From: a phage
NCBI GenBank assembly: GCA_033580375.1
Contig: GCA_033580375.1_4527.1
Direction: 5' to 3' (one strand)
DNA length: 64,000 nt
The translations under genes and the position numbers were made by a program. Shown one piece after another: positions 11,270 through 17,818 of this stretch. Under the pieces are notes generated by a model. The model was given only the letters and a program-made list of their open reading frames with translations, was not told where the DNA came from and did not search any database. How positions within the stretch are numbered: position 1 is the first letter of the stretch; each line of letters starts with the position of its first letter.

Positions 11270-11818
11270 TTAACGAGCCCATTTGATGATTTCTGTAATC
11301 AAATCATTACGTTCGCTTGCATTAAATCCTATAACTTTGTTAGCACCATCATGATTAAGTAATTGATACGTTTGGATTTTGTTATGAATTGCAAACTCTT
11401 CAAAATGTGAAATGACTGTATTAAAACTGAGTGAAGACAAAGTAATAAGATCGTCTTCAAAACTTTCAGTCATTTCGTTACGTGTTAAAATAATTGTGAA
11501 CACGTCATGGTTTTGGCAAAGACGAACATAATCCTGCTCATAAACATCAAGAACCGAGTCCGCATCTTGTCGAATACGTCCATAAACCCAGTTACTAATA
11601 TATCCACGGTCTAACAGATAAATCTTAGTAGGGTCTAAATAATTCAACATCGTTTCGAAACAACCAACTTCATTTCGAGACTTAACATCGAAACGTCCAT
11701 CAACTGTTCGTTTAGGGAAATCAATCTTTACATATCTTTCACTAATTTCCATTATGACATTAATGAAAGTTGTTTTGCCGGCATTATCTGGGCCATCTAC
11801 TAAAATAATTTTAGCCAT
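11270..11818 (-). CDS. thymidylate-kinase-like P-loop nucleotide kinase
   Basis: 182 aa; ILVDGPDNAGKTT Walker A and DRGYISNWVYG resembling the Tmk DR motif. Confidence 0.5.
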   Translation of the reverse strand: MAKIILVDGPDNAGKTTFINVIMEISERYVKIDFPKRTVDGRFDVKSRNEVGCFETMLNYLDPTKIYLLDRGYISNWVYGRIRQDADSVLDVYEQDYVRLCQNHDVFTIILTRNEMTESFEDDLITLSSLSFNTVISHFEEFAIHNKIQTYQLLNHDGANKVIGFNASERNDLITEIIKWAR

Positions 11819-11819
11819 T

Positions 11820-12716
11820 TTATTCCTCGATTACGACATCTTCGTATTTAGGTATATTATACGGCGAAGAAATTAAAGCATTAAAGTAGATGAACTCACC
11901 AAGACCTGGATGGAATACTTCTTCAGGATTTTCGAAATATTGAATCTTCGGACGTCCTTTAAGAATTTGATAGTACTCAGTTTTAGTTGGTTTAAAAATT
12001 CGAATCAGCGCTTCTTCAGGATACTTATTTCTGTCGAAGCTATTATTTGGATCGGTTATATAAAGTGGTTGTCCTAATTGAATTGCACATTCAACCACTT
12101 GTTCAAAATGATAACACGGATCACTAATTCGAAATGGATGAAAAATACCATCTACATGAATAGGAGCCAAATCACCTACAAGACGCTGCATGATGGAAGG
12201 ACGTATAACTTTCTGCGTTACGATAATCTTATTATCTGCGCCAGCGTTAACCAGCACTTCTTTTTGACGTTCATTCAACACAGTAGTTTGAAGTGAACGA
12301 TTAACCGACAACATGTCGGTTTTTAAGAATTCGTCAATATAAAAACGTGGTTTATTAGGGTCTGCAGTGATATTGAAATTGAATTCTACATCAAAAGCGC
12401 CGTCATATCCAGTGATATCTGTGATTAGAAAATCACAATCATAATAAGCAATTAATGAATCAACAACAAATTCATTTTCAGACCAGAAATATTTACGAGT
12501 GTTATACGCGTTATCTTTATACCATAATGGAACAAACTTAAATTCTGGGAAAAGACGTTCACATTCTTTAATATCAGATGCATTACGTGGATATGTAATC
12601 ACATCACCCGGATTAGCACGGTGCAAATGAAGTTGGAAGTTGCCATCCTTAAGGATAGCATACTGTCCAGTTTCATAAGACCGCATACTCAAGATTGGTA
12701 CGCGGAAAATAGCCAT
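11820..12716 (-). CDS. hypothetical protein at the T4 beta-gt position; candidate DNA-modifying transferase
   Basis: 298-aa ORF; no similarity to T4 beta-gt recognisable by eye. Confidence 0.45.
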   Translation of the reverse strand: MAIFRVPILSMRSYETGQYAILKDGNFQLHLHRANPGDVITYPRNASDIKECERLFPEFKFVPLWYKDNAYNTRKYFWSENEFVVDSLIAYYDCDFLITDITGYDGAFDVEFNFNITADPNKPRFYIDEFLKTDMLSVNRSLQTTVLNERQKEVLVNAGADNKIIVTQKVIRPSIMQRLVGDLAPIHVDGIFHPFRISDPCYHFEQVVECAIQLGQPLYITDPNNSFDRNKYPEEALIRIFKPTKTEYYQILKGRPKIQYFENPEEVFHPGLGEFIYFNALISSPYNIPKYEDVVIEE

Positions 12717-13432
12717 TAGTCAAGGAATCCTTTAACATAATCAAAATCACGTTCAAACACATGGGCACTTACCATGGTATGAGTATAATCACCAACTTCT
12801 ACACCGCATTCGTTAGCGATATAATGAAGTAATTTTCCTTGGAGATAAAAATCCAACTGCATAACAACAGCACAGTTCTGAGAACGCATATGACAGTGGG
12901 TATAAAGCTTACCATCACGAATATAATAAGTCACTGAGTCAGTACATGGATATTCAAGTGTTTCATCTGAATCAAGCAAAGCCTGATCAGAACTTTCTAG
13001 AATTTGGAACACAACTCTTCGAGAGTTAGGTTTTTCTTTAAGTTCTTTTAGAAGAGCTGGTAATTGAGCCGCAATGCGAGGACCATAGAAAGTGTTGAAG
13101 TTTGCAGGCAAAGCATCTGATTTTGGTTTAGAAATAAATTTAGCGACATTAGGATATGCCTTAAACGCTTCTTCTGCATCAGTACCACCGGAAATCATAA
13201 ACTTCCAGAAGTCTTCGGCATATTCATAAGATATGCGATTAATACGTGGGTCGGTCATTTTGAATGATGATGGAGTGTCAACAACTACTGTCATAGACCC
13301 AATTTCATTACAACGTCCAATACGAGAATCAGTTACGAATTCTGGGTTTTCTAAAATTTCACGATTGACTGCTTTAAATGCGGTTTGAAAATCTGCGGCT
13401 TTGATATATTTCATTGTGTTATGTTTTCCCAT
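12716..13432 (-). CDS. 42: dCMP hydroxymethylase gp42 (thymidylate-synthase fold)
   Basis: 238 aa; YPCTDSVTYYIRDGKL (catalytic Cys) and HMRSQNCAVVMQLDF resemble T4 gp42/ThyA motifs; syntenic position. Confidence 0.8.
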   Translation of the reverse strand: MGKHNTMKYIKAADFQTAFKAVNREILENPEFVTDSRIGRCNEIGSMTVVVDTPSSFKMTDPRINRISYEYAEDFWKFMISGGTDAEEAFKAYPNVAKFISKPKSDALPANFNTFYGPRIAAQLPALLKELKEKPNSRRVVFQILESSDQALLDSDETLEYPCTDSVTYYIRDGKLYTHCHMRSQNCAVVMQLDFYLQGKLLHYIANECGVEVGDYTHTMVSAHVFERDFDYVKGFLD

Positions 13433-13710: not shown

Positions 13711-14871
13711 TCATTCCGGGTACCTCAAAGCGTCATCAGAGTTAGTTATATCAATAATAGATATGGAGTTTTCTGCTAACCCGTTTTTAGATAATTGACG
13801 TTTGTAATATCTTTCACAATATGTACACGTTGACCCACAGATTTCATTAGCACAATCGAAATCCGGATGTCTGAACCACCTTTTTTCTAAAAAGCCATCT
13901 AACAAAGAGGTTTCAATATTTACTGTATGTGAAAACTCAGTCTCATTTTCAAGAGTGAAAATAGTCTCTAAAGGCTTCCACAGTTCTAACAAATTACCTT
14001 CAAACTTTTCAGAAGCGTATGCTTCAAGAACTTTCAAAATGTAGTCTGTGCTACCTGTACGTCCTGAAACTTTGAATTGAGTGATACCAATATCATTATA
14101 AAGTTTCAAATCTTGAGGACGAACAAAACGAGTTCTCAGCCAGTTAAATGGGTCTGTATCACGAGCTTTAATGCAGTGTTGCATTGGATATCCATTTAAG
14201 GATTTAGCATCATCAGCGGTAACATCAGTACTATGGAAAATATAGCAAGAGTCACGATAACTACAATGTGTTGTATACCCTTTACCAGCATTAGAACAGA
14301 ACTCATTTACAAGAACTTCAAATATTATATTGTTCTTATTGCAAAACTCTGCTGCACGCTTCAGGAAAGAAACTGAACGGTTCTTATGAATTCCACAGCA
14401 GACCTTTTTGATATTATATTGGTCATGCAAGTATTTGATTTGAGTTACGGCATCAACATGTAGAATTGTTGAAACTTCAATCTCAATATCTTTATTGACT
14501 TCACGAACAATTTCCATAACAACAGGGTTAGCGATAGTAATACGCCATACACCTATTGACCAAAGATACTGAACATAATCCTGAATAGCTTTCTTCTTCC
14601 ACTCAACTAGTTCTCTTTTTGAACCAGGATTTATCGTGTTGAGTGTATAGTTAAAGCAAATACCTAATTCGTTACAACGTTTAACATAGTCTTCTAACAT
14701 TTTTTTGTCAACGTCAGGAAGCCTAAAATCAGGTCTGGCTGCTACAAAAGCCATTTCTCTTGTAGAGCCATATACTTCGTTTATCAAGCTATTAGGATAA
14801 GTTTTATTGAGCTCTACGATTTTATCAAGAAGAGCTAAATCAAAATTCGTTCCGATTTTAAAAGTATTCAT
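13711..14871 (-). CDS. hypothetical Cys-rich protein, function unknown
   Basis: 386 aa; C-terminal CANEICGSTCTYC cluster plus further conserved-looking Cys; lies between gene 42 and the sugar-nucleotide genes. Confidence 0.5.
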   Translation of the reverse strand: MNTFKIGTNFDLALLDKIVELNKTYPNSLINEVYGSTREMAFVAARPDFRLPDVDKKMLEDYVKRCNELGICFNYTLNTINPGSKRELVEWKKKAIQDYVQYLWSIGVWRITIANPVVMEIVREVNKDIEIEVSTILHVDAVTQIKYLHDQYNIKKVCCGIHKNRSVSFLKRAAEFCNKNNIIFEVLVNEFCSNAGKGYTTHCSYRDSCYIFHSTDVTADDAKSLNGYPMQHCIKARDTDPFNWLRTRFVRPQDLKLYNDIGITQFKVSGRTGSTDYILKVLEAYASEKFEGNLLELWKPLETIFTLENETEFSHTVNIETSLLDGFLEKRWFRHPDFDCANEICGSTCTYCERYYKRQLSKNGLAENSISIIDITNSDDALRYPE

Positions 14872-14929: not shown

Positions 14930-15331
14930 TTATAGATTCGGTTTATACGATTTAAATGTTTCGAATTCGCCTTTATTCATAAGAGCTTTGAATTCGTCAG
15001 GACGCATAGCTTTGTCGTCGATAATCCAATCATATACTGGTTTATGTGTTAGCAAATTATGGTACTTCAAACCAATGTTTTCCAAGTTCTGAATCAGACT
15101 TGGGAGAATGTCAATTGCTATACGACCAGGACCTACTGACTTCATACCACGAGCAGTGTAAAGCGTTATGGTATGCCCTGCATCATACAGGGCATTAATG
15201 GCGGTCACCATTTCGACGTCTGGTTTGAAGTTCGCGTAATCACGATTGTTATTCCATTCCGTGATGCAATCATCGACATCAAAACAAAGATTAAGCATGT
15301 TTTCTACACGGCGCATTAGATTCGTTCCCAT
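14930..15331 (-). CDS. small HAD-superfamily sugar-phosphate phosphatase (KdsC/GmhB-like)
   Basis: 133 aa; FDVDDCI DxD nucleophile motif near N-terminus, TARG motif II. Confidence 0.55.
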   Translation of the reverse strand: MGTNLMRRVENMLNLCFDVDDCITEWNNNRDYANFKPDVEMVTAINALYDAGHTITLYTARGMKSVGPGRIAIDILPSLIQNLENIGLKYHNLLTHKPVYDWIIDDKAMRPDEFKALMNKGEFETFKSYKPNL

Positions 15332-17001
15332 TGATGAGTGATATCGCCACCGATTGGACGATAGGAAACACCAGTTTCTTTATCAGTTAGTACCCATTTA
15401 CCAGGATTTTTTGTAATCAGAGTAGCCGTTACAGGTTCTGCTACGTCATAACTAATAGAGCCGTCTTGAAGTACACGACCCATGTTACGTAATTGCTTAG
15501 TCAGAAGTTCCATACCTTTATAATATGCGGCTACCGCTTTAAGTGGATTATTCTTGAAATAACCACCTAATGCAATCCAGATAATCGCCACTGCCAAATG
15601 ATGATACTCGTTAAACGAACTCATCTTTCCATATTTGTAAACTAATGGATTGATGTTAATAGTCACATTACAAGTTGTTTCGTCAATAGTAAACTGTCCC
15701 CAGGTCGGATTAGCATTGAATTCATCATAACCTGAAACAGCATAAAGCACTTTAGCTTCATCGTACAATTTTGGCCCGTAAATCTTGGTTTCACCAAAAT
15801 ATCCACGAGGGTCGATAAACTTGACTTCGCCGTTATCAGTAATCATAGTATTACTGAAGTTCGGGTCACCGTGAATAACAGAGTACTGTCCCTGAGAACG
15901 GTTATGATAACGAATAAGGTGTTCTAAAGCTTGTTTCAACATTGGCTTCAGACGTCCAATCTTAGTGTAGTTCACATGTGTGATTTTACCAAATGAATCA
16001 ATCAATGGTTGAATGCTTTCACAACGATCAATAACTTTCGTATAGAATTCTTTAGTGAAATCACGACGAACAGTTTCAGGACTTACAAAATAAATGTCTG
16101 TGCTGAATTTCAGTGCATCTAAAATTGCATCAACAATTTGTGGACGAGCAAGACTTGATTTGGATTTAATATATTCAAATGCTGGCTTACCTTTAATGCG
16201 TTCCATTTCAAAGTTATTTTCATTAACAGAAACTAACTGAGGAACTGAATCTGATTTTACTTTCAAATACCATGAAATCTCATCTTTTTGAAGAGCTCGT
16301 CCCTGTTCTGTTAATGCGAATTTAGTTACAGTTTCTTCACCAATTTCAACTGCATTAAAACTACGATTAAGTTCACGAACTTCATGAGCCTTTTCAAGTT
16401 TAGGCATATCACCTAAATCAATTAGATTCATAAGCTCTGATTTATTGAATGCACTGCCGTAAAGGAATTCTACAAAATCACGTCCTTTACAGTATTCGTG
16501 AATTTCCTCGTCAGTAGAACCCATGTAGAATTCCCAGTCTTTGAACTGATAAATTCCTACAACATTACCGCCTGTTGAACCTACGTTAGTGATATTTTCA
16601 CCATCGAAATTATATCGACATTCATCACCCTTAACATAGATTGCGTTAACATTCCAAGACCATGAACCAAAATCTGGAATAATATCACACCAGTTAACAA
16701 CTACGTTATGGCCGTCTAAATCTTTATGTAATTTAGCAAGAGCATAAGCAGAACCATACGCTTCATCAACTGTACGAATAGTCACATTGAACCCTTCTTG
16801 CTCACAATAAGCTCGAACAGTTTCAGCAAATTTTGAATGAACTACTACAATAATTTCATCTGCACCAAGGTCAGAATAAATTGTATACAAATTGCTCAGA
16901 ATAGTGTCTTGTTTATAGTTCACAAGAACTTTTGGAATATGGTGAGTAATTGGATATAAACGAGTTGCCAGTCCAGCACCAAGAATAACAGCTTTTTTCA
17001 T
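15316..17001 (-). CDS. bifunctional sugar-1-phosphate nucleotidyltransferase (N-term) / APH-type sugar kinase (C-term)
   Basis: 561 aa; N-term ILGAGLATRLYPIT (RmlA/GalU-like G-x-G-x-R), C-term HGDPNFSN Brenner motif and FIDPRG as in choline/aminoglycoside-kinase fold. Confidence 0.65.
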   Translation of the reverse strand: MKKAVILGAGLATRLYPITHHIPKVLVNYKQDTILSNLYTIYSDLGADEIIVVVHSKFAETVRAYCEQEGFNVTIRTVDEAYGSAYALAKLHKDLDGHNVVVNWCDIIPDFGSWSWNVNAIYVKGDECRYNFDGENITNVGSTGGNVVGIYQFKDWEFYMGSTDEEIHEYCKGRDFVEFLYGSAFNKSELMNLIDLGDMPKLEKAHEVRELNRSFNAVEIGEETVTKFALTEQGRALQKDEISWYLKVKSDSVPQLVSVNENNFEMERIKGKPAFEYIKSKSSLARPQIVDAILDALKFSTDIYFVSPETVRRDFTKEFYTKVIDRCESIQPLIDSFGKITHVNYTKIGRLKPMLKQALEHLIRYHNRSQGQYSVIHGDPNFSNTMITDNGEVKFIDPRGYFGETKIYGPKLYDEAKVLYAVSGYDEFNANPTWGQFTIDETTCNVTININPLVYKYGKMSSFNEYHHLAVAIIWIALGGYFKNNPLKAVAAYYKGMELLTKQLRNMGRVLQDGSISYDVAEPVTATLITKNPGKWVLTDKETGVSYRPIGGDITHQWERI

Positions 17002-17042
17002 GTTGAAGTCCTCATTGGTAAGTAGGAGTATTGTACACTATT

Positions 17043-17186
17043 CTAGTTAAAGCATTCATACTTTGCTTGTAGTCCAATCATAATCCATCCAATTACAAGT
17101 GTTGGAATCATTACTGGAGCCGTTAAGCTCCAGTAGATAGTCATGACAAGCATCAATAGTAAAAGTCCTATTGTTATTGCTTTCAT
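17043..17186 (-). CDS. small hydrophobic peptide at the T4 imm position
   Basis: 47 aa, below track threshold; ATG with GAGG SD, entirely hydrophobic. Confidence 0.3.
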   Translation of the reverse strand: MKAITIGLLLLMLVMTIYWSLTAPVMIPTLVIGWIMIGLQAKYECFN

Positions 17187-17818
17187 TGCTCGCCTCGTAA
17201 CATGGCACCTAGAGCACCGCCAGGGTGGAACTTAAGGAAATCATTAGAGGTAAATCCACGTTCAGACGAAAGGTTGATAGCAAACGTATCGATAAGCGCT
17301 AACAACAATGTAGTGGACATGGTCGGAGCTAAAGAGTTCTCGTCAACTTCTACCGCGATACCGGTACAGAACGTATAATCAAAAAGAGCTTCGTATTCTT
17401 GCGGAATGTCAGGGTTACAATGTAACAGAATCTGTTTAACCTGAGGACGAATCATACGAAGATGTTTAGCAACACCTATCATTTCTTCAGTCTTACCAGA
17501 ACGACTGATGTGAACTAATACATCATTAGGTGCAATAAATCCTGCGTCGCCATGAGAATAATGCCCAGTGTTCAAATACATGCTAGGAATACCGAGTGAA
17601 GCAAATGTCTCAGAAGCTTTAGTTGCAATATTAGCATTCTTACCAACACCTGTAATAATTACACGACTTTCATAATTACTCAGTCCAGGGCGTCGAAGAG
17701 TTTCAAGAATAGCATTATAACGAGCAGGGTTTTGACTAATTACTTTGGCCATAGCGGCCAAAGAAGAAGCTTGTTTTATGATTGCGTCAATAGCGATAGT
17801 AATAGGAGTAGTTTTCAT
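17183..17818 (-). CDS. SIS-domain sugar-phosphate isomerase (KdsD/GutQ-like arabinose-5-phosphate isomerase, single domain)
   Basis: 211 aa; ITGVGKNANIATKASETFASLG...HGDAGFIAPNDVLVHISRSGKTEE matches KdsD-type SIS motifs. Confidence 0.65.
   Translation of the reverse strand: MKTTPITIAIDAIIKQASSLAAMAKVISQNPARYNAILETLRRPGLSNYESRVIITGVGKNANIATKASETFASLGIPSMYLNTGHYSHGDAGFIAPNDVLVHISRSGKTEEMIGVAKHLRMIRPQVKQILLHCNPDIPQEYEALFDYTFCTGIAVEVDENSLAPTMSTTLLLALIDTFAINLSSERGFTSNDFLKFHPGGALGAMLRGEQ

What the first reader, a model, noticed from the sequence alone, without database searches (positions are those of the whole stretch)
15316..17001. Fusion of RmlA-like nucleotidyltransferase and APH-type sugar kinase in one 561-aa protein
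The N-terminus has the G-x-G-x-R sugar-1-P nucleotidyltransferase signature and the C-terminus has the HGDxxxxN catalytic loop of aminoglycoside/choline-kinase-fold anomeric sugar kinases. This resembles the two-step AmgK/MurU or bifunctional fucokinase/pyrophosphorylase salvage enzymes, but uses a different kinase fold and the reverse domain order from HldE. A single polypeptide would turn a free or 5-phospho sugar into an NDP-sugar.
Basis: partly seen in the sequence, partly recalled or inferred. Interest (0 to 1): 0.7.

Follow-up and report, generated by a model that had tools for sequence, protein, structure and literature searches.

The report
Known phage UDP-arabinose kinase/uridylyltransferase fusion
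The 561-residue protein is a real two-enzyme fusion that helps an RB69-type phage make the activated arabinose it attaches to its DNA, but it has already been described, and a closely related phage's version has been tested biochemically.

Summary

The window is an RB69-like Mosigvirus. The gene is RB69 ORF053c+052c, 558/561 identical once the known 1-nt GenBank error is removed. Thomas et al. (2018) merged the two ORFs and linked them to UDP-arabinose. Lee et al. (NAR 2026) equate the gene with HY126 AfhE, which He et al. (Nat Chem Biol 2026) showed to be a D-arabinose-5-phosphate 1-kinase plus UDP-arabinose pyrophosphorylase.

The fusion alone does not complete the route. The adjacent isomerase makes Ara5P, and the adjacent mini-HAD phosphatase removes the 5-phosphate between the two steps.

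In passing, I found a homologous isomerase / NT-kinase / mini-HAD module in many bacterial and archaeal genomes, and four-domain whole-pathway fusions in a giant-virus contig.

The parts
15316..17001 (-). Full ORF, 561 aa. It is a bifunctional sugar-1-P nucleotidyltransferase / APH-fold kinase, the orthologue of RB69 ORF053c+052c (gp52:53) and HY126 AfhE.
   Evidence: literature
16387..17001 (-). N-terminal nucleotidyltransferase domain (aa 1-~205). Invariant residues are G10, R14, K24, G83, D106, D195, G197, D198 and K201.
16960..16980 (-). Nucleotide-binding loop G8-A-G10-L-A12-T-R14.
15478..16386 (-). APH/choline-kinase-fold kinase domain (aa ~206-508). Invariant residues are K227, E241, H377, G378, D379, N384 and D397.
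15850..15873 (-). Catalytic loop H377-G-D-P-N-F-S-N384 (Brenner motif HxDxxxxN).
15802..15816 (-). I396-D397-P-R-G400. D397 is inferred to be the Mg-binding Asp, equivalent to the DFG Asp.
   Evidence: Invariant. The role is assigned by analogy with APH/ChoK (inference).
15316..15477 (-). Phage-specific C-terminal tail (aa ~509-561, TKNPGKWVLTDxETGxxYRP...W). It has lower model confidence and is absent from jumbo-phage and cellular homologues. Its function is unknown.
17009..17013 (-). GAGGA ribosome-binding site, 7 nt upstream of the ATG.
17183..17818 (-). SIS-domain arabinose-5-phosphate isomerase (RB69 gp55). It supplies Ara5P from Ru5P.
   Evidence: Pfam SIS, E 1e-9. RB69 annotation. Lee et al..
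14930..15331 (-). Mini-HAD phosphatase (RB69 gp51, AfhF-like), 133 aa. It overlaps the 3' end of the NT-kinase gene by 16 nt and removes the 5-phosphate of Araf-1,5-P2.
   Evidence: PDB 9iqw, E 4e-85, near-identical; 1xpj, E 1e-10. Lee et al..
12716..13432 (-). Thymidylate-synthase-like dCMP 5-hydroxylase (RB69 gp48). It makes the acceptor base.
   Evidence: Pfam. PDB 9iqc/9ir2/9iqu, E 4e-162. Lee et al. abstract.
11820..12716 (-). Putative DNA arabinosyltransferase 1 (RB69 gp46:47), the consumer of UDP-Araf.
   Evidence: 98.7% identical to the Bas46 homologue. Lee et al. Table 1. No Pfam or PDB sequence hit.
11270..11818 (-). Nucleotide (thymidylate-like) kinase (RB69 gp45) of the same module.
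13711..14871 (-). Peptidase-U32-family protein (RB69 gp50) inside the module. Its role is unresolved.
   Evidence: Pfam U32, E 7e-11. Cys-rich C-terminus. ~50% identical homologues beside NT-kinase+SIS in L005 and L006.

Best explanation
The ORF is the Mosigvirus (RB69-type) copy of the bifunctional enzyme called AfhE in phage HY126. It works within a four-activity pathway encoded by neighbouring genes.

1. The SIS isomerase (17183-17818) converts host ribulose-5-P to D-arabinose-5-P.
2. The C-terminal APH-fold kinase domain uses ATP to phosphorylate the anomeric O1 of the 5-phospho-furanose, giving arabinofuranose-1,5-bisphosphate. D379 is the inferred catalytic base, N384 and D397 bind Mg, and K227/E241 hold ATP.
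3. The mini-HAD phosphatase (14930-15331) removes the 5-phosphate.
4. The N-terminal nucleotidyltransferase domain condenses Araf-1-P with UTP to give UDP-arabinofuranose plus PPi. The G8-R14 loop and K24 hold the NTP, and D106 plus D195/D198 are the inferred metal ligands.

Phage arabinosyltransferases then transfer the sugar to 5-hydroxycytosine in phage DNA, which protects it from host nucleases.

Shown here: the ORF, both folds, conservation of the catalytic residues, near-identity to RB69 gp52:53, and the gene neighbourhood. Taken from the literature: the substrates, UTP as donor, and the bisphosphate intermediate. Inferred: the roles of individual residues.
For: - ORF and motifs.
- NTD: Pfam above cut-off; aligned with the LicC nucleotide loop; profile hit to HddC at E 1.6e-13.
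- Conservation: catalytic residues of both domains are invariant in 40 sequences down to 29% identity.
- Identity to RB69: 558/561 identical to RB69 ORF053c+052c once the extra C after gene nt 654 is removed. RB69 ORF052c and ORF053c are the top two BFVD fold matches, each with TMt 0.96.
- Neighbourhood: SIS isomerase, HAD phosphatase, ThyA-like hydroxylase and glycosyltransferase, between DNA polymerase and UvsX.
- Neighbours in the PDB: near-identical solved structures exist (9iqw, 9iqc, 9ir2, 9iqu). I take these to be the HY126 entries of He et al. (inference).
- Rosetta-stone support: HAD-SIS-NT-kinase single polypeptides, and conserved isomerase/NT-kinase/mini-HAD synteny in 60 of ~78 cellular loci.
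- Literature: Thomas 2018; Lee 2026, summarising He 2026 on AfhE and AfhF activities; the Thanatos orthologue TH1_060 is essential.
- Chemical logic (inference): phosphorylating O1 while the 5-phosphate is still present locks the furanose ring that is found in the DNA adduct.
Against: - No assay exists for this exact protein.
- I could not read He et al. 2026, so the biochemistry is second-hand, through Lee et al.
- The AfhE sequence itself was not available to align.
- Pfam APH is below threshold on this protein, and sequence profiles find no solved kinase except weak RIO2 hits.
- The closest solved kinase folds are choline kinases, not sugar kinases.
- The 54%-identical Thanatos orthologue gave no NDP-sugar with xylose-1-P and any NTP. 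This is compatible with specificity for arabinofuranose-1-P but is still a negative result.
- Lee et al.'s own Table 1 labels the steps in the other order, phosphatase first and kinase on free arabinose.
Confidence: 0.88

Rival explanations
1. The enzymes are the same but act in the other order. The HAD phosphatase first strips Ara5P to free D-arabinose. The kinase domain is then an anomeric kinase for the free sugar (AmgK/NahK-like), and Ara-1-P goes straight to the transferase domain with no bisphosphate intermediate.
For: Lee et al. Table 1 annotates gp51 as 'dephosphorylates Araf5p to Ara' and the CTD as 'Phosphorylates Ara to Araf1p'. Known APH-fold anomeric kinases act on free sugars (established knowledge). 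Nothing in the sequence or fold distinguishes the two orders.
Against: The text of the same paper reports that He et al. showed AfhE phosphorylates Araf5P to Araf1,5P and AfhF then dephosphorylates it. Free arabinose is mainly pyranose, whereas the product is a furanoside (chemical inference). The parallel GmhA/HldE/GmhB heptose pathway uses the bisphosphate order (established knowledge).
Confidence: 0.08
2. It is a LicC/LicA-type (or AmgK/MurU-type) enzyme that activates a non-pentose substrate such as choline, ethanolamine or an amino sugar, unrelated to DNA arabinosylation.
Against: Scores against NCBIfam MurU, HddC and RmlA equivalogs are far below their cut-offs, for example 24.9 against 250. 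The gene sits between an arabinose-5-P isomerase and a sugar-phosphate phosphatase inside the DNA-modification cluster. Fusions to SIS and HAD domains exist. The modification reported in RB69 DNA is arabinose. Orthologue biochemistry also argues against this reading.
Confidence: 0.02
3. The N-terminal GT-A-like domain is itself the DNA glycosyltransferase. This was the original CDD-based lead in Thomas 2018 and was suggested for Thanatos TH1_060.
For: The CDD 'glycosyltransferase family A' hit was noted by Thomas et al.. The Thanatos authors keep TH1_060 as a glycosyltransferase candidate.
Against: Thomas et al. found no glycosyltransferase homologues once the full-length protein was used. The NTP-binding G-loop, Arg and Lys are those of pyrophosphorylases. 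All top structural matches are nucleotidyltransferases. TH1_060 transferred no sugar to DNA or nucleotides in vitro. Separate GT-B arabinosyltransferases are encoded in the phage.
Confidence: 0.02

Closest known systems
AfhE of E. coli phage HY126; RB69 gp52:53 (ORF53_52c); Acinetobacter phage DLP3 gp82
   Same: Same gene. It is 558/561 identical to corrected RB69 ORF053c+052c. It has the same 561-aa two-domain architecture and the same neighbours (isomerase, phosphatase, hydroxylase, glycosyltransferase). The reported activities are D-arabinose-5-P kinase plus UDP-D-arabinose pyrophosphorylase.
   Different: It differs from RB69 by only three amino-acid substitutions. This copy has not itself been assayed. 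Its identity to HY126 AfhE is inferred from near-identical neighbours in the PDB, not from an AfhE sequence.
HldE with GmhA and GmhB (ADP-L-glycero-D-manno-heptose pathway)
   Same: The pathway logic is the same. A SIS isomerase is followed by an anomeric kinase acting on a sugar phosphate, giving a bisphosphate. A HAD phosphatase then acts, followed by a nucleotidyltransferase, with kinase and transferase fused in one protein (established knowledge).
   Different: The HldE kinase has the PfkB/ribokinase fold and is N-terminal. Its transferase has the cytidylyltransferase-like fold and is C-terminal. The substrate is a heptose and the donor is ATP. No PfkB or CTP_transf_like signal is seen here. 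This is a convergent solution, not homology.
AmgK / MurU (MurNAc/GlcNAc salvage)
   Different: AmgK and MurU are separate proteins. Their substrates are free amino sugars, with no bisphosphate or phosphatase step. NCBIfam MurU scores here are 24.9 against a cut-off of 250.
LicC / LicA (CDP-choline pathway; LicCA fusions, recalled from memory)
   Different: The substrate is choline and the donor is CTP. The gene context is unrelated. Only ~20% identity is seen in the NTD.
FKP (Bacteroides L-fucokinase/GDP-fucose pyrophosphorylase) and Leishmania AFKP80
   Same: Both have an N-terminal pyrophosphorylase and a C-terminal anomeric kinase in one chain. AFKP80 activates D-arabinose (established knowledge).
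   Different: The kinase has the GHMP fold, the substrates are free pyranose sugars, the donor is GTP, and it is a salvage enzyme rather than a de novo route from Ru5P.

Membership tests
Sugar-1-phosphate nucleotidyltransferase (Pfam PF00483; RmlA/MurU/LicC type) | Family HMM above the curated cut-off | tested here: met
   39.1 bits against 21.2, E 8e-10, aa 3-99
Sugar-1-phosphate nucleotidyltransferase (Pfam PF00483; RmlA/MurU/LicC type) | N-terminal G-x-G-T-R-(L/M) NTP loop followed by a conserved Lys | tested here: met
   G8-A-G10-L-A12-T-R14-L ... P23-K24 aligns with LicC AGLGTRL...PK. G10, R14 and K24 are invariant. The second Gly is Ala here and A/G/S in homologues.
Sugar-1-phosphate nucleotidyltransferase (Pfam PF00483; RmlA/MurU/LicC type) | Rossmann-like alpha/beta/alpha fold superposable on RmlA, LicC and MurU | tested here: met
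Sugar-1-phosphate nucleotidyltransferase (Pfam PF00483; RmlA/MurU/LicC type) | Metal-binding acidic residues at structurally equivalent positions | tested here: inconclusive
   D106, D195 and D198 are invariant, but no residue-level superposition was available.
APH / choline-kinase-like small-molecule kinases (Pfam PF01636, PKinase clan) | Family HMM above the curated cut-off | tested here: not met
   14.3 bits against 23.2 on this protein. It is met in homologues: Trichodesmium at 32.1 bits, and PF01636 is precomputed for P0051, P0055, P0056, P0083 and others.
APH / choline-kinase-like small-molecule kinases (Pfam PF01636, PKinase clan) | Brenner catalytic loop HxDxxxxN plus a downstream Mg-binding Asp | tested here: met
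   H377-G-D379-P-N-F-S-N384 and I-D397-P-R-G, all invariant
APH / choline-kinase-like small-molecule kinases (Pfam PF01636, PKinase clan) | Bilobal kinase fold matching ChoK/APH rather than protein kinases | tested here: met
AfhE-type phage UDP-arabinofuranose synthase | Orthology to the published genes (RB69 gp52:53, HY126 AfhE) | tested here: met
   558/561 identical to corrected RB69 and 98.9% to Bas46. HY126 AfhE was not available. Its neighbours' PDB entries are near-identical to the window's neighbours.
AfhE-type phage UDP-arabinofuranose synthase | Clustered with an Ara5P isomerase, a mini-HAD phosphatase, a ThyA-like dCMP hydroxylase and a glycosyltransferase | tested here: met
AfhE-type phage UDP-arabinofuranose synthase | Ara5P 1-kinase and UDP-Ara pyrophosphorylase activities | not testable with these tools
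   Reported for HY126 AfhE by He et al., as cited in Lee et al..
HldE | N-terminal PfkB-fold kinase plus C-terminal cytidylyltransferase-fold adenylyltransferase | tested here: not met
   No PfkB or CTP_transf_like hits. The order here is NT then kinase, and the folds are GT-A-like NT and APH-like.
MurU / HddC / RmlA equivalogs (NCBIfam) | Score above the equivalog cut-off | tested here: not met
   MurU 24.9/250, HddC 22.3/300, RmlA 25.9/320

The most novel reading that the evidence does not exclude
The phage enzyme may be one branch of a widespread and, as far as I could find, functionally uncharacterised cellular and giant-virus pathway. That pathway would make an NDP-D-pentofuranose from pentose-phosphate-pathway intermediates.

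The same NT-kinase is followed by a homologous ~125-aa mini-HAD in 60 of ~78 bacterial and archaeal loci. It is often preceded by a KpsF/KdsD isomerase. In Sutterellaceae-type loci the isomerase is replaced by a ribulose-P 3-epimerase plus a cupin isomerase. In a Mimiviridae-like contig and a slime-mould transcriptome, all four activities are fused in one ~930-aa protein.

If these enzymes make NDP-arabinofuranose, or a xylo- or lyxo-furanose variant, there would be a nucleotide-sugar route to D-Araf glycans independent of the mycobacterial decaprenyl-phosphate route.

Thomas et al. 2018 already noted prokaryotic homologues and SIS fusions. Only the mini-HAD partner, the four-domain viral fusions and the epimerase/cupin variant may be new, and He et al. 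2026, which I could not read, may cover them.
Probability: 0.3. Interest if true: 0.5.

Novelty: already known. Interest (0 to 1): 0.15.

Why it matters
For this window it matters little. The gene, its fusion architecture, its role in making UDP-arabinose for cytosine arabinosylation, and the biochemistry of a closely related phage's orthologue are all published (2018-2026).

The value of this check is threefold:
- It confirms that a reader working from sequence alone reached the correct function.
- It fixes the strand, the domain boundaries and the catalytic residues.
- It shows that the fusion needs the neighbouring phosphatase.

The side observation may matter more. Homologous three-enzyme modules in many bacteria and archaea, and whole-pathway fusions in giant viruses, suggest that NDP-pentofuranose synthesis by this route is far more widespread than phage DNA modification. 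They also point to a direct cellular source for the phage genes, rather than the L-Ara4N pathway suggested in the literature.

Tried and rejected
- He et al. 2026 (Nat Chem Biol) is not held, so AfhE biochemistry is cited only through Lee et al.
- 'AfhE' and 'HY126' text searches found only Lee et al..
- A PDB sequence search found no solved structure of the NT-kinase orthologue. A profile search found kinases only as weak RIO2 hits.
- The afdb50 fold library was unavailable, so the viral library was used instead.
- A literature search for LicCA fusions found nothing usable, so that comparison rests on memory.
- The promoter and terminator scan was uninformative: 24 sites against 28.9 expected.
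- BLASTP between the phage phosphatase and the Trichodesmium small ORF was negative, and a PDB search with a cellular mini-HAD was empty. Homology only emerged with the profile-profile comparison.
- The glycosyltransferase neighbour has no PDB sequence relative.
- The glycosyltransferase reading and the LicC/LicA reading were considered and rejected; see the rival explanations.
Full report
**1. Checking the observation**

The ORF listing finds a single ATG-initiated ORF at exactly 15316..17001, 561 aa, on the minus strand. The plus-strand translation is full of stops, and the minus-strand translation is clean. A GAGGA Shine-Dalgarno sequence lies 7 nt upstream.

The N-terminus reads MKKAVILGAGLATRLYPITHHIPKVLV. 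HMMER aligns this in register with the nucleotide-binding loop of S. pneumoniae LicC, KAIILAAGLGTRLRPLTENTPKALV. The loop is therefore the canonical sugar-1-phosphate nucleotidyltransferase loop with Ala12 in place of the second glycine, not a literal GxGxR.

The C-terminal half contains IHGDPNFSN (H377...N384) followed by FIDPRGY (D397).

Pfam NTP_transferase matches aa 3-99 at E 8e-10, above the gathering score. The kinase region gives only sub-threshold hits to APH, fructosamine kinase, EcKL and RIO1, all centred on aa 344-409. PHROG 4098, annotated 'unknown function', matches end to end at E 5e-295.

**2. Where the window comes from**

Megablast places the gene in 176 phage records, 149 of them at 95-99% identity. 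All of these are RB69-like T-even phages (Mosigvirus). They include RB69 itself, where the region is annotated as two ORFs (052c and 053c), and BASEL phage Bas46, where it is annotated 'putative enzyme involved in UDP-arabinose biosynthesis'.

A global alignment shows a single extra C in the RB69 GenBank record after gene nucleotide 654. With it removed, RB69 encodes a 561-aa protein 558/561 identical to the window protein. Thomas et al. 2018 reported exactly this sequencing error. They re-sequenced the region, expressed a ~64 kDa product, and proposed a role in UDP-arabinose synthesis.

**3. Structure and conservation**

A database search returned 320 homologues. In an alignment of 40 of them, reaching down to 29% identity, the following columns are invariant:
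- Transferase half: G10, R14, K24, G83, D106, D195, G197, D198, K201.
- Kinase half: K227, E241, H377, G378, D379, N384, D397.

AlphaFold2 run on this alignment gives a confident two-domain model, with pLDDT 92.5 and pTM 0.90.

- C-terminal domain: choline kinases (15.4, 15.0, 14.9), glucosamine kinase (14.8), APH (14.8), fructosamine-3-kinase (14.8), maltokinase (14.6), LicA (14.1).

Foldseek agrees, with MurU, RmlA and LicC at about 1e-8 and APH(2'')-IIa at 1e-7. In the viral structure library the two best hits are RB69 ORF052c and ORF053c, each with target TM 0.96.

The last ~55 residues (aa ~509-561) form a lower-confidence tail. It is conserved in T4-like phage homologues and absent from jumbo-phage and cellular homologues.

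**4. Context and mechanism**

The gene lies in a module between DNA polymerase and UvsX. On the coding (minus) strand the order is:
- SIS arabinose-5-P isomerase (17183-17818)
- a 47-aa hydrophobic ORF
- the NT-kinase
- a 133-aa mini-HAD phosphatase that overlaps its stop by 16 nt (14930-15331)
- a U32-family protein
- a thymidylate-synthase-like protein (12716-13432)
- a glycosyltransferase (11820-12716)
- a nucleotide kinase (11270-11818)

Lee et al. (NAR 2026) show that RB69 DNA carries arabinosylated 5-hydroxycytosine and that the ThyA homologue makes 5-hydroxy-dCMP. They equate RB69 gp52:53 with AfhE of phage HY126. According to their summary of He et al. [quoted passage not shown] AfhF, the HAD protein, removes a phosphate from the 1,5-bisphosphate intermediate.

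I could not read He et al. directly. However, the PDB holds near-identical structures of the two neighbours: 9iqw for the phosphatase at E 4e-85, and 9iqc/9ir2/9iqu for the ThyA-like enzyme at E 4e-162. I infer that these are the HY126 entries, so HY126 is a close relative of the window phage.

The resulting route is Ru5P -> Ara5P -> Araf-1,5-P2 -> Araf-1-P -> UDP-Araf. It is the pentose analogue of the GmhA/HldE/GmhB ADP-heptose pathway, built from different folds.

Phosphorylating O1 while the 5-phosphate is still in place locks the furanose ring. This is my chemical argument for the bisphosphate order over the alternative order printed in Lee et al.'s Table 1.

The Shewanella phage Thanatos orthologue (54% identical) is essential for propagation. 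It was inactive on xylose-1-P with any NTP. That is compatible with narrow specificity but is a negative result.

**5. Comparison with known families**

The protein is a member of the NTP_transferase family (all tested criteria are met) and of the APH/ChoK-like kinase superfamily. For the latter, the motif and fold criteria are met. The Pfam score is below cut-off on this sequence but above it in homologues.

It is not an HldE, MurU, HddC or RmlA equivalog. NCBIfam scores are roughly a tenth of the cut-offs or less.

It works like HldE+GmhB and resembles AmgK/MurU and LicC/LicA in fold.

**6. Novelty**

The finding is already known. The fusion was recognised in 2018, annotated in the Bas46 (BASEL collection) record MZ501056, analysed structurally in 2026, and biochemically characterised in a close relative in 2026.

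**7. Things seen beyond the finding**

A profile search of 1.84 billion representative proteins finds 545 clusters at E <= 1e-30. Nearly all of the 150 listed align over almost the whole two-domain core.

Many of these are longer proteins. The ~890-1010 aa forms are HAD-SIS-NT-kinase, carrying all four pathway activities in one chain. One of them lies in a Mimiviridae-like contig beside a MutS with an HNH domain and RNA polymerase subunits. Another comes from a Ceratiomyxa transcriptome. The ~760-790 aa forms carry a C-terminal cupin.

A jumbo-phage contig of 350 kb has SIS, GT2, NT-kinase, HAD and a ThyA-like gene together.

A scan of 185,579 species genomes returned 80 loci. Two or three of these are phage genomes binned as bacteria (L002, L003, L006). 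The rest come from Burkholderiales, Acetobacter, Campylobacterota, cyanobacteria (including the complete Trichodesmium erythraeum IMS101 genome), Bacillota, Thermotogota, CPR bacteria and several archaea.

Among the ~78 cellular loci:
- In 60, the NT-kinase is followed directly by a conserved ~125-aa protein. Profile-profile comparison shows it is homologous to the phage phosphatase, with probability 92%, E 7e-7, and the DxD, TAR and (N/D)DxK motifs in register.
- In about 33, a KpsF/KdsD isomerase is adjacent.
- In eight loci without such an isomerase, a ribulose-phosphate 3-epimerase and a PMI-type cupin are present instead.

No NCBIfam equivalog covers these proteins. The open literature searched mentions UDP-D-arabinose essentially only in the phage paper.

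Thomas et al. had already noted ~80 prokaryotic homologues and Butyrivibrio fusions to a SIS domain. The cellular occurrence is therefore not new in itself. The mini-HAD partner, the four-domain viral fusions and the epimerase/cupin variant may be.

Lee et al. speculate that the phage pathway derives from L-Ara4N metabolism. The cellular module found here is a more direct candidate source.

**8. Verdict**

The feature is real and correctly interpreted, and it is already explained in the literature. Interest is low for the finding itself. There is a moderate residual lead in the cellular and giant-virus relatives and in the unexplained U32-family gene.

Noticed in passing
L069 6798-9856 (Trichodesmium erythraeum IMS101, NC_008312); L036 7015-9888; L011 7376-9891; L016 7307-10803; about 78 cellular loci, L004-L081: Cellular genomes of many bacterial and archaeal phyla carry the same module as the phage: a KpsF/KdsD isomerase, a ~506-aa NT-kinase and a ~125-aa mini-HAD. 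The mini-HAD is present in 60 loci and is homologous to the phage phosphatase (hhalign probability 92%). No curated family or characterised function was found. In eight loci without the isomerase, a ribulose-P 3-epimerase and a PMI-type cupin take its place.
   Followed up: partly
P0086 in L082 8001-10781 (GCA_013558355.1 contig JACCDH010973257.1); also P0088, P0089, P0091, P0092: Proteins of ~890-1010 aa fuse HAD phosphatase, SIS isomerase, nucleotidyltransferase and kinase in one chain, which is the whole Ru5P-to-NDP-pentose route. P0086 lies in a Mimiviridae-like context (MutS with an HNH domain, RNA polymerase Rpb2 and RNA_pol_N). P0091 comes from a Ceratiomyxa fruticulosa transcriptome.
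   Followed up: partly
window 13711-14871 (-): A peptidase-U32-family protein (RB69 gp50) with a Cys-rich C-terminus (CANEICGSTCTYC) sits inside the arabinosylation module, and its role is unexplained. Homologues of ~50% identity lie beside NT-kinase+SIS in L005 and L006. L006 is a T4-like phage fragment from an anaerobe-associated MAG, and no ThyA-like hydroxylase was detected in the part held. U32 relatives (RlhA, TrhP, UbiU/V) are O2-independent hydroxylases (my knowledge). It might therefore be an anaerobic route to 5-hydroxycytosine. This is speculative.
   Followed up: partly
window 15316-15477 (-), aa ~509-561 of the NT-kinase: A tail (TKNPGKWVLTDxETGxxYRPxG...W) is conserved in T4-like phage homologues but missing from jumbo-phage, giant-virus and cellular homologues. 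Model confidence falls to 50-80 there. Its function is unknown.
   Followed up: no
window 17043-17186 (-): A 47-aa, very hydrophobic ORF (MKAITIGLLLLMLVMTIYWSLTAPVMIPTLVIGWIMIGLQAKYECFN) lies between the isomerase and the NT-kinase. Its ATG overlaps the isomerase stop codon (ATGA). A hypothetical ORF is annotated at the same position in Bas46 and, as ORF054c, in RB69.
   Followed up: no
L002 (CAVJPU010000002.1, 167 kb), L003 (Izemoplasma MAG contig, 120 kb), L006 (Oscillospiraceae MAG contig, 36.6 kb): Contigs filed under bacterial genomes or MAGs carry phage gene sets. L002 and L003 carry the whole phage cluster (isomerase, NT-kinase, phosphatase, ThyA-like, glycosyltransferase, kinase). L006 carries gp32 and topoisomerase II genes. 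These are probably phage genomes binned as bacteria.
   Followed up: partly
L085 5135-10997 (JGI metagenome contig Ga0558064_0000047, 350 kb): A jumbo-phage-sized contig carries SIS, a GT2 glycosyltransferase, an NT-kinase (519 aa, no tail), a HAD, a 303-aa thymidylate-synthase homologue and an EndoIV-like nuclease together. This suggests a related cytosine-glycosylation system outside the T4-like phages.
   Followed up: no
window 14930-15331 and 12716-13432 (-): Near-identical solved structures of the two neighbouring enzymes are in the PDB under uninformative names: 9iqw 'Capsule biosynthesis protein', and 9iqc/9ir2/9iqu 'Thymidylate synthase'. No structure of the NT-kinase is deposited.
   Followed up: yes
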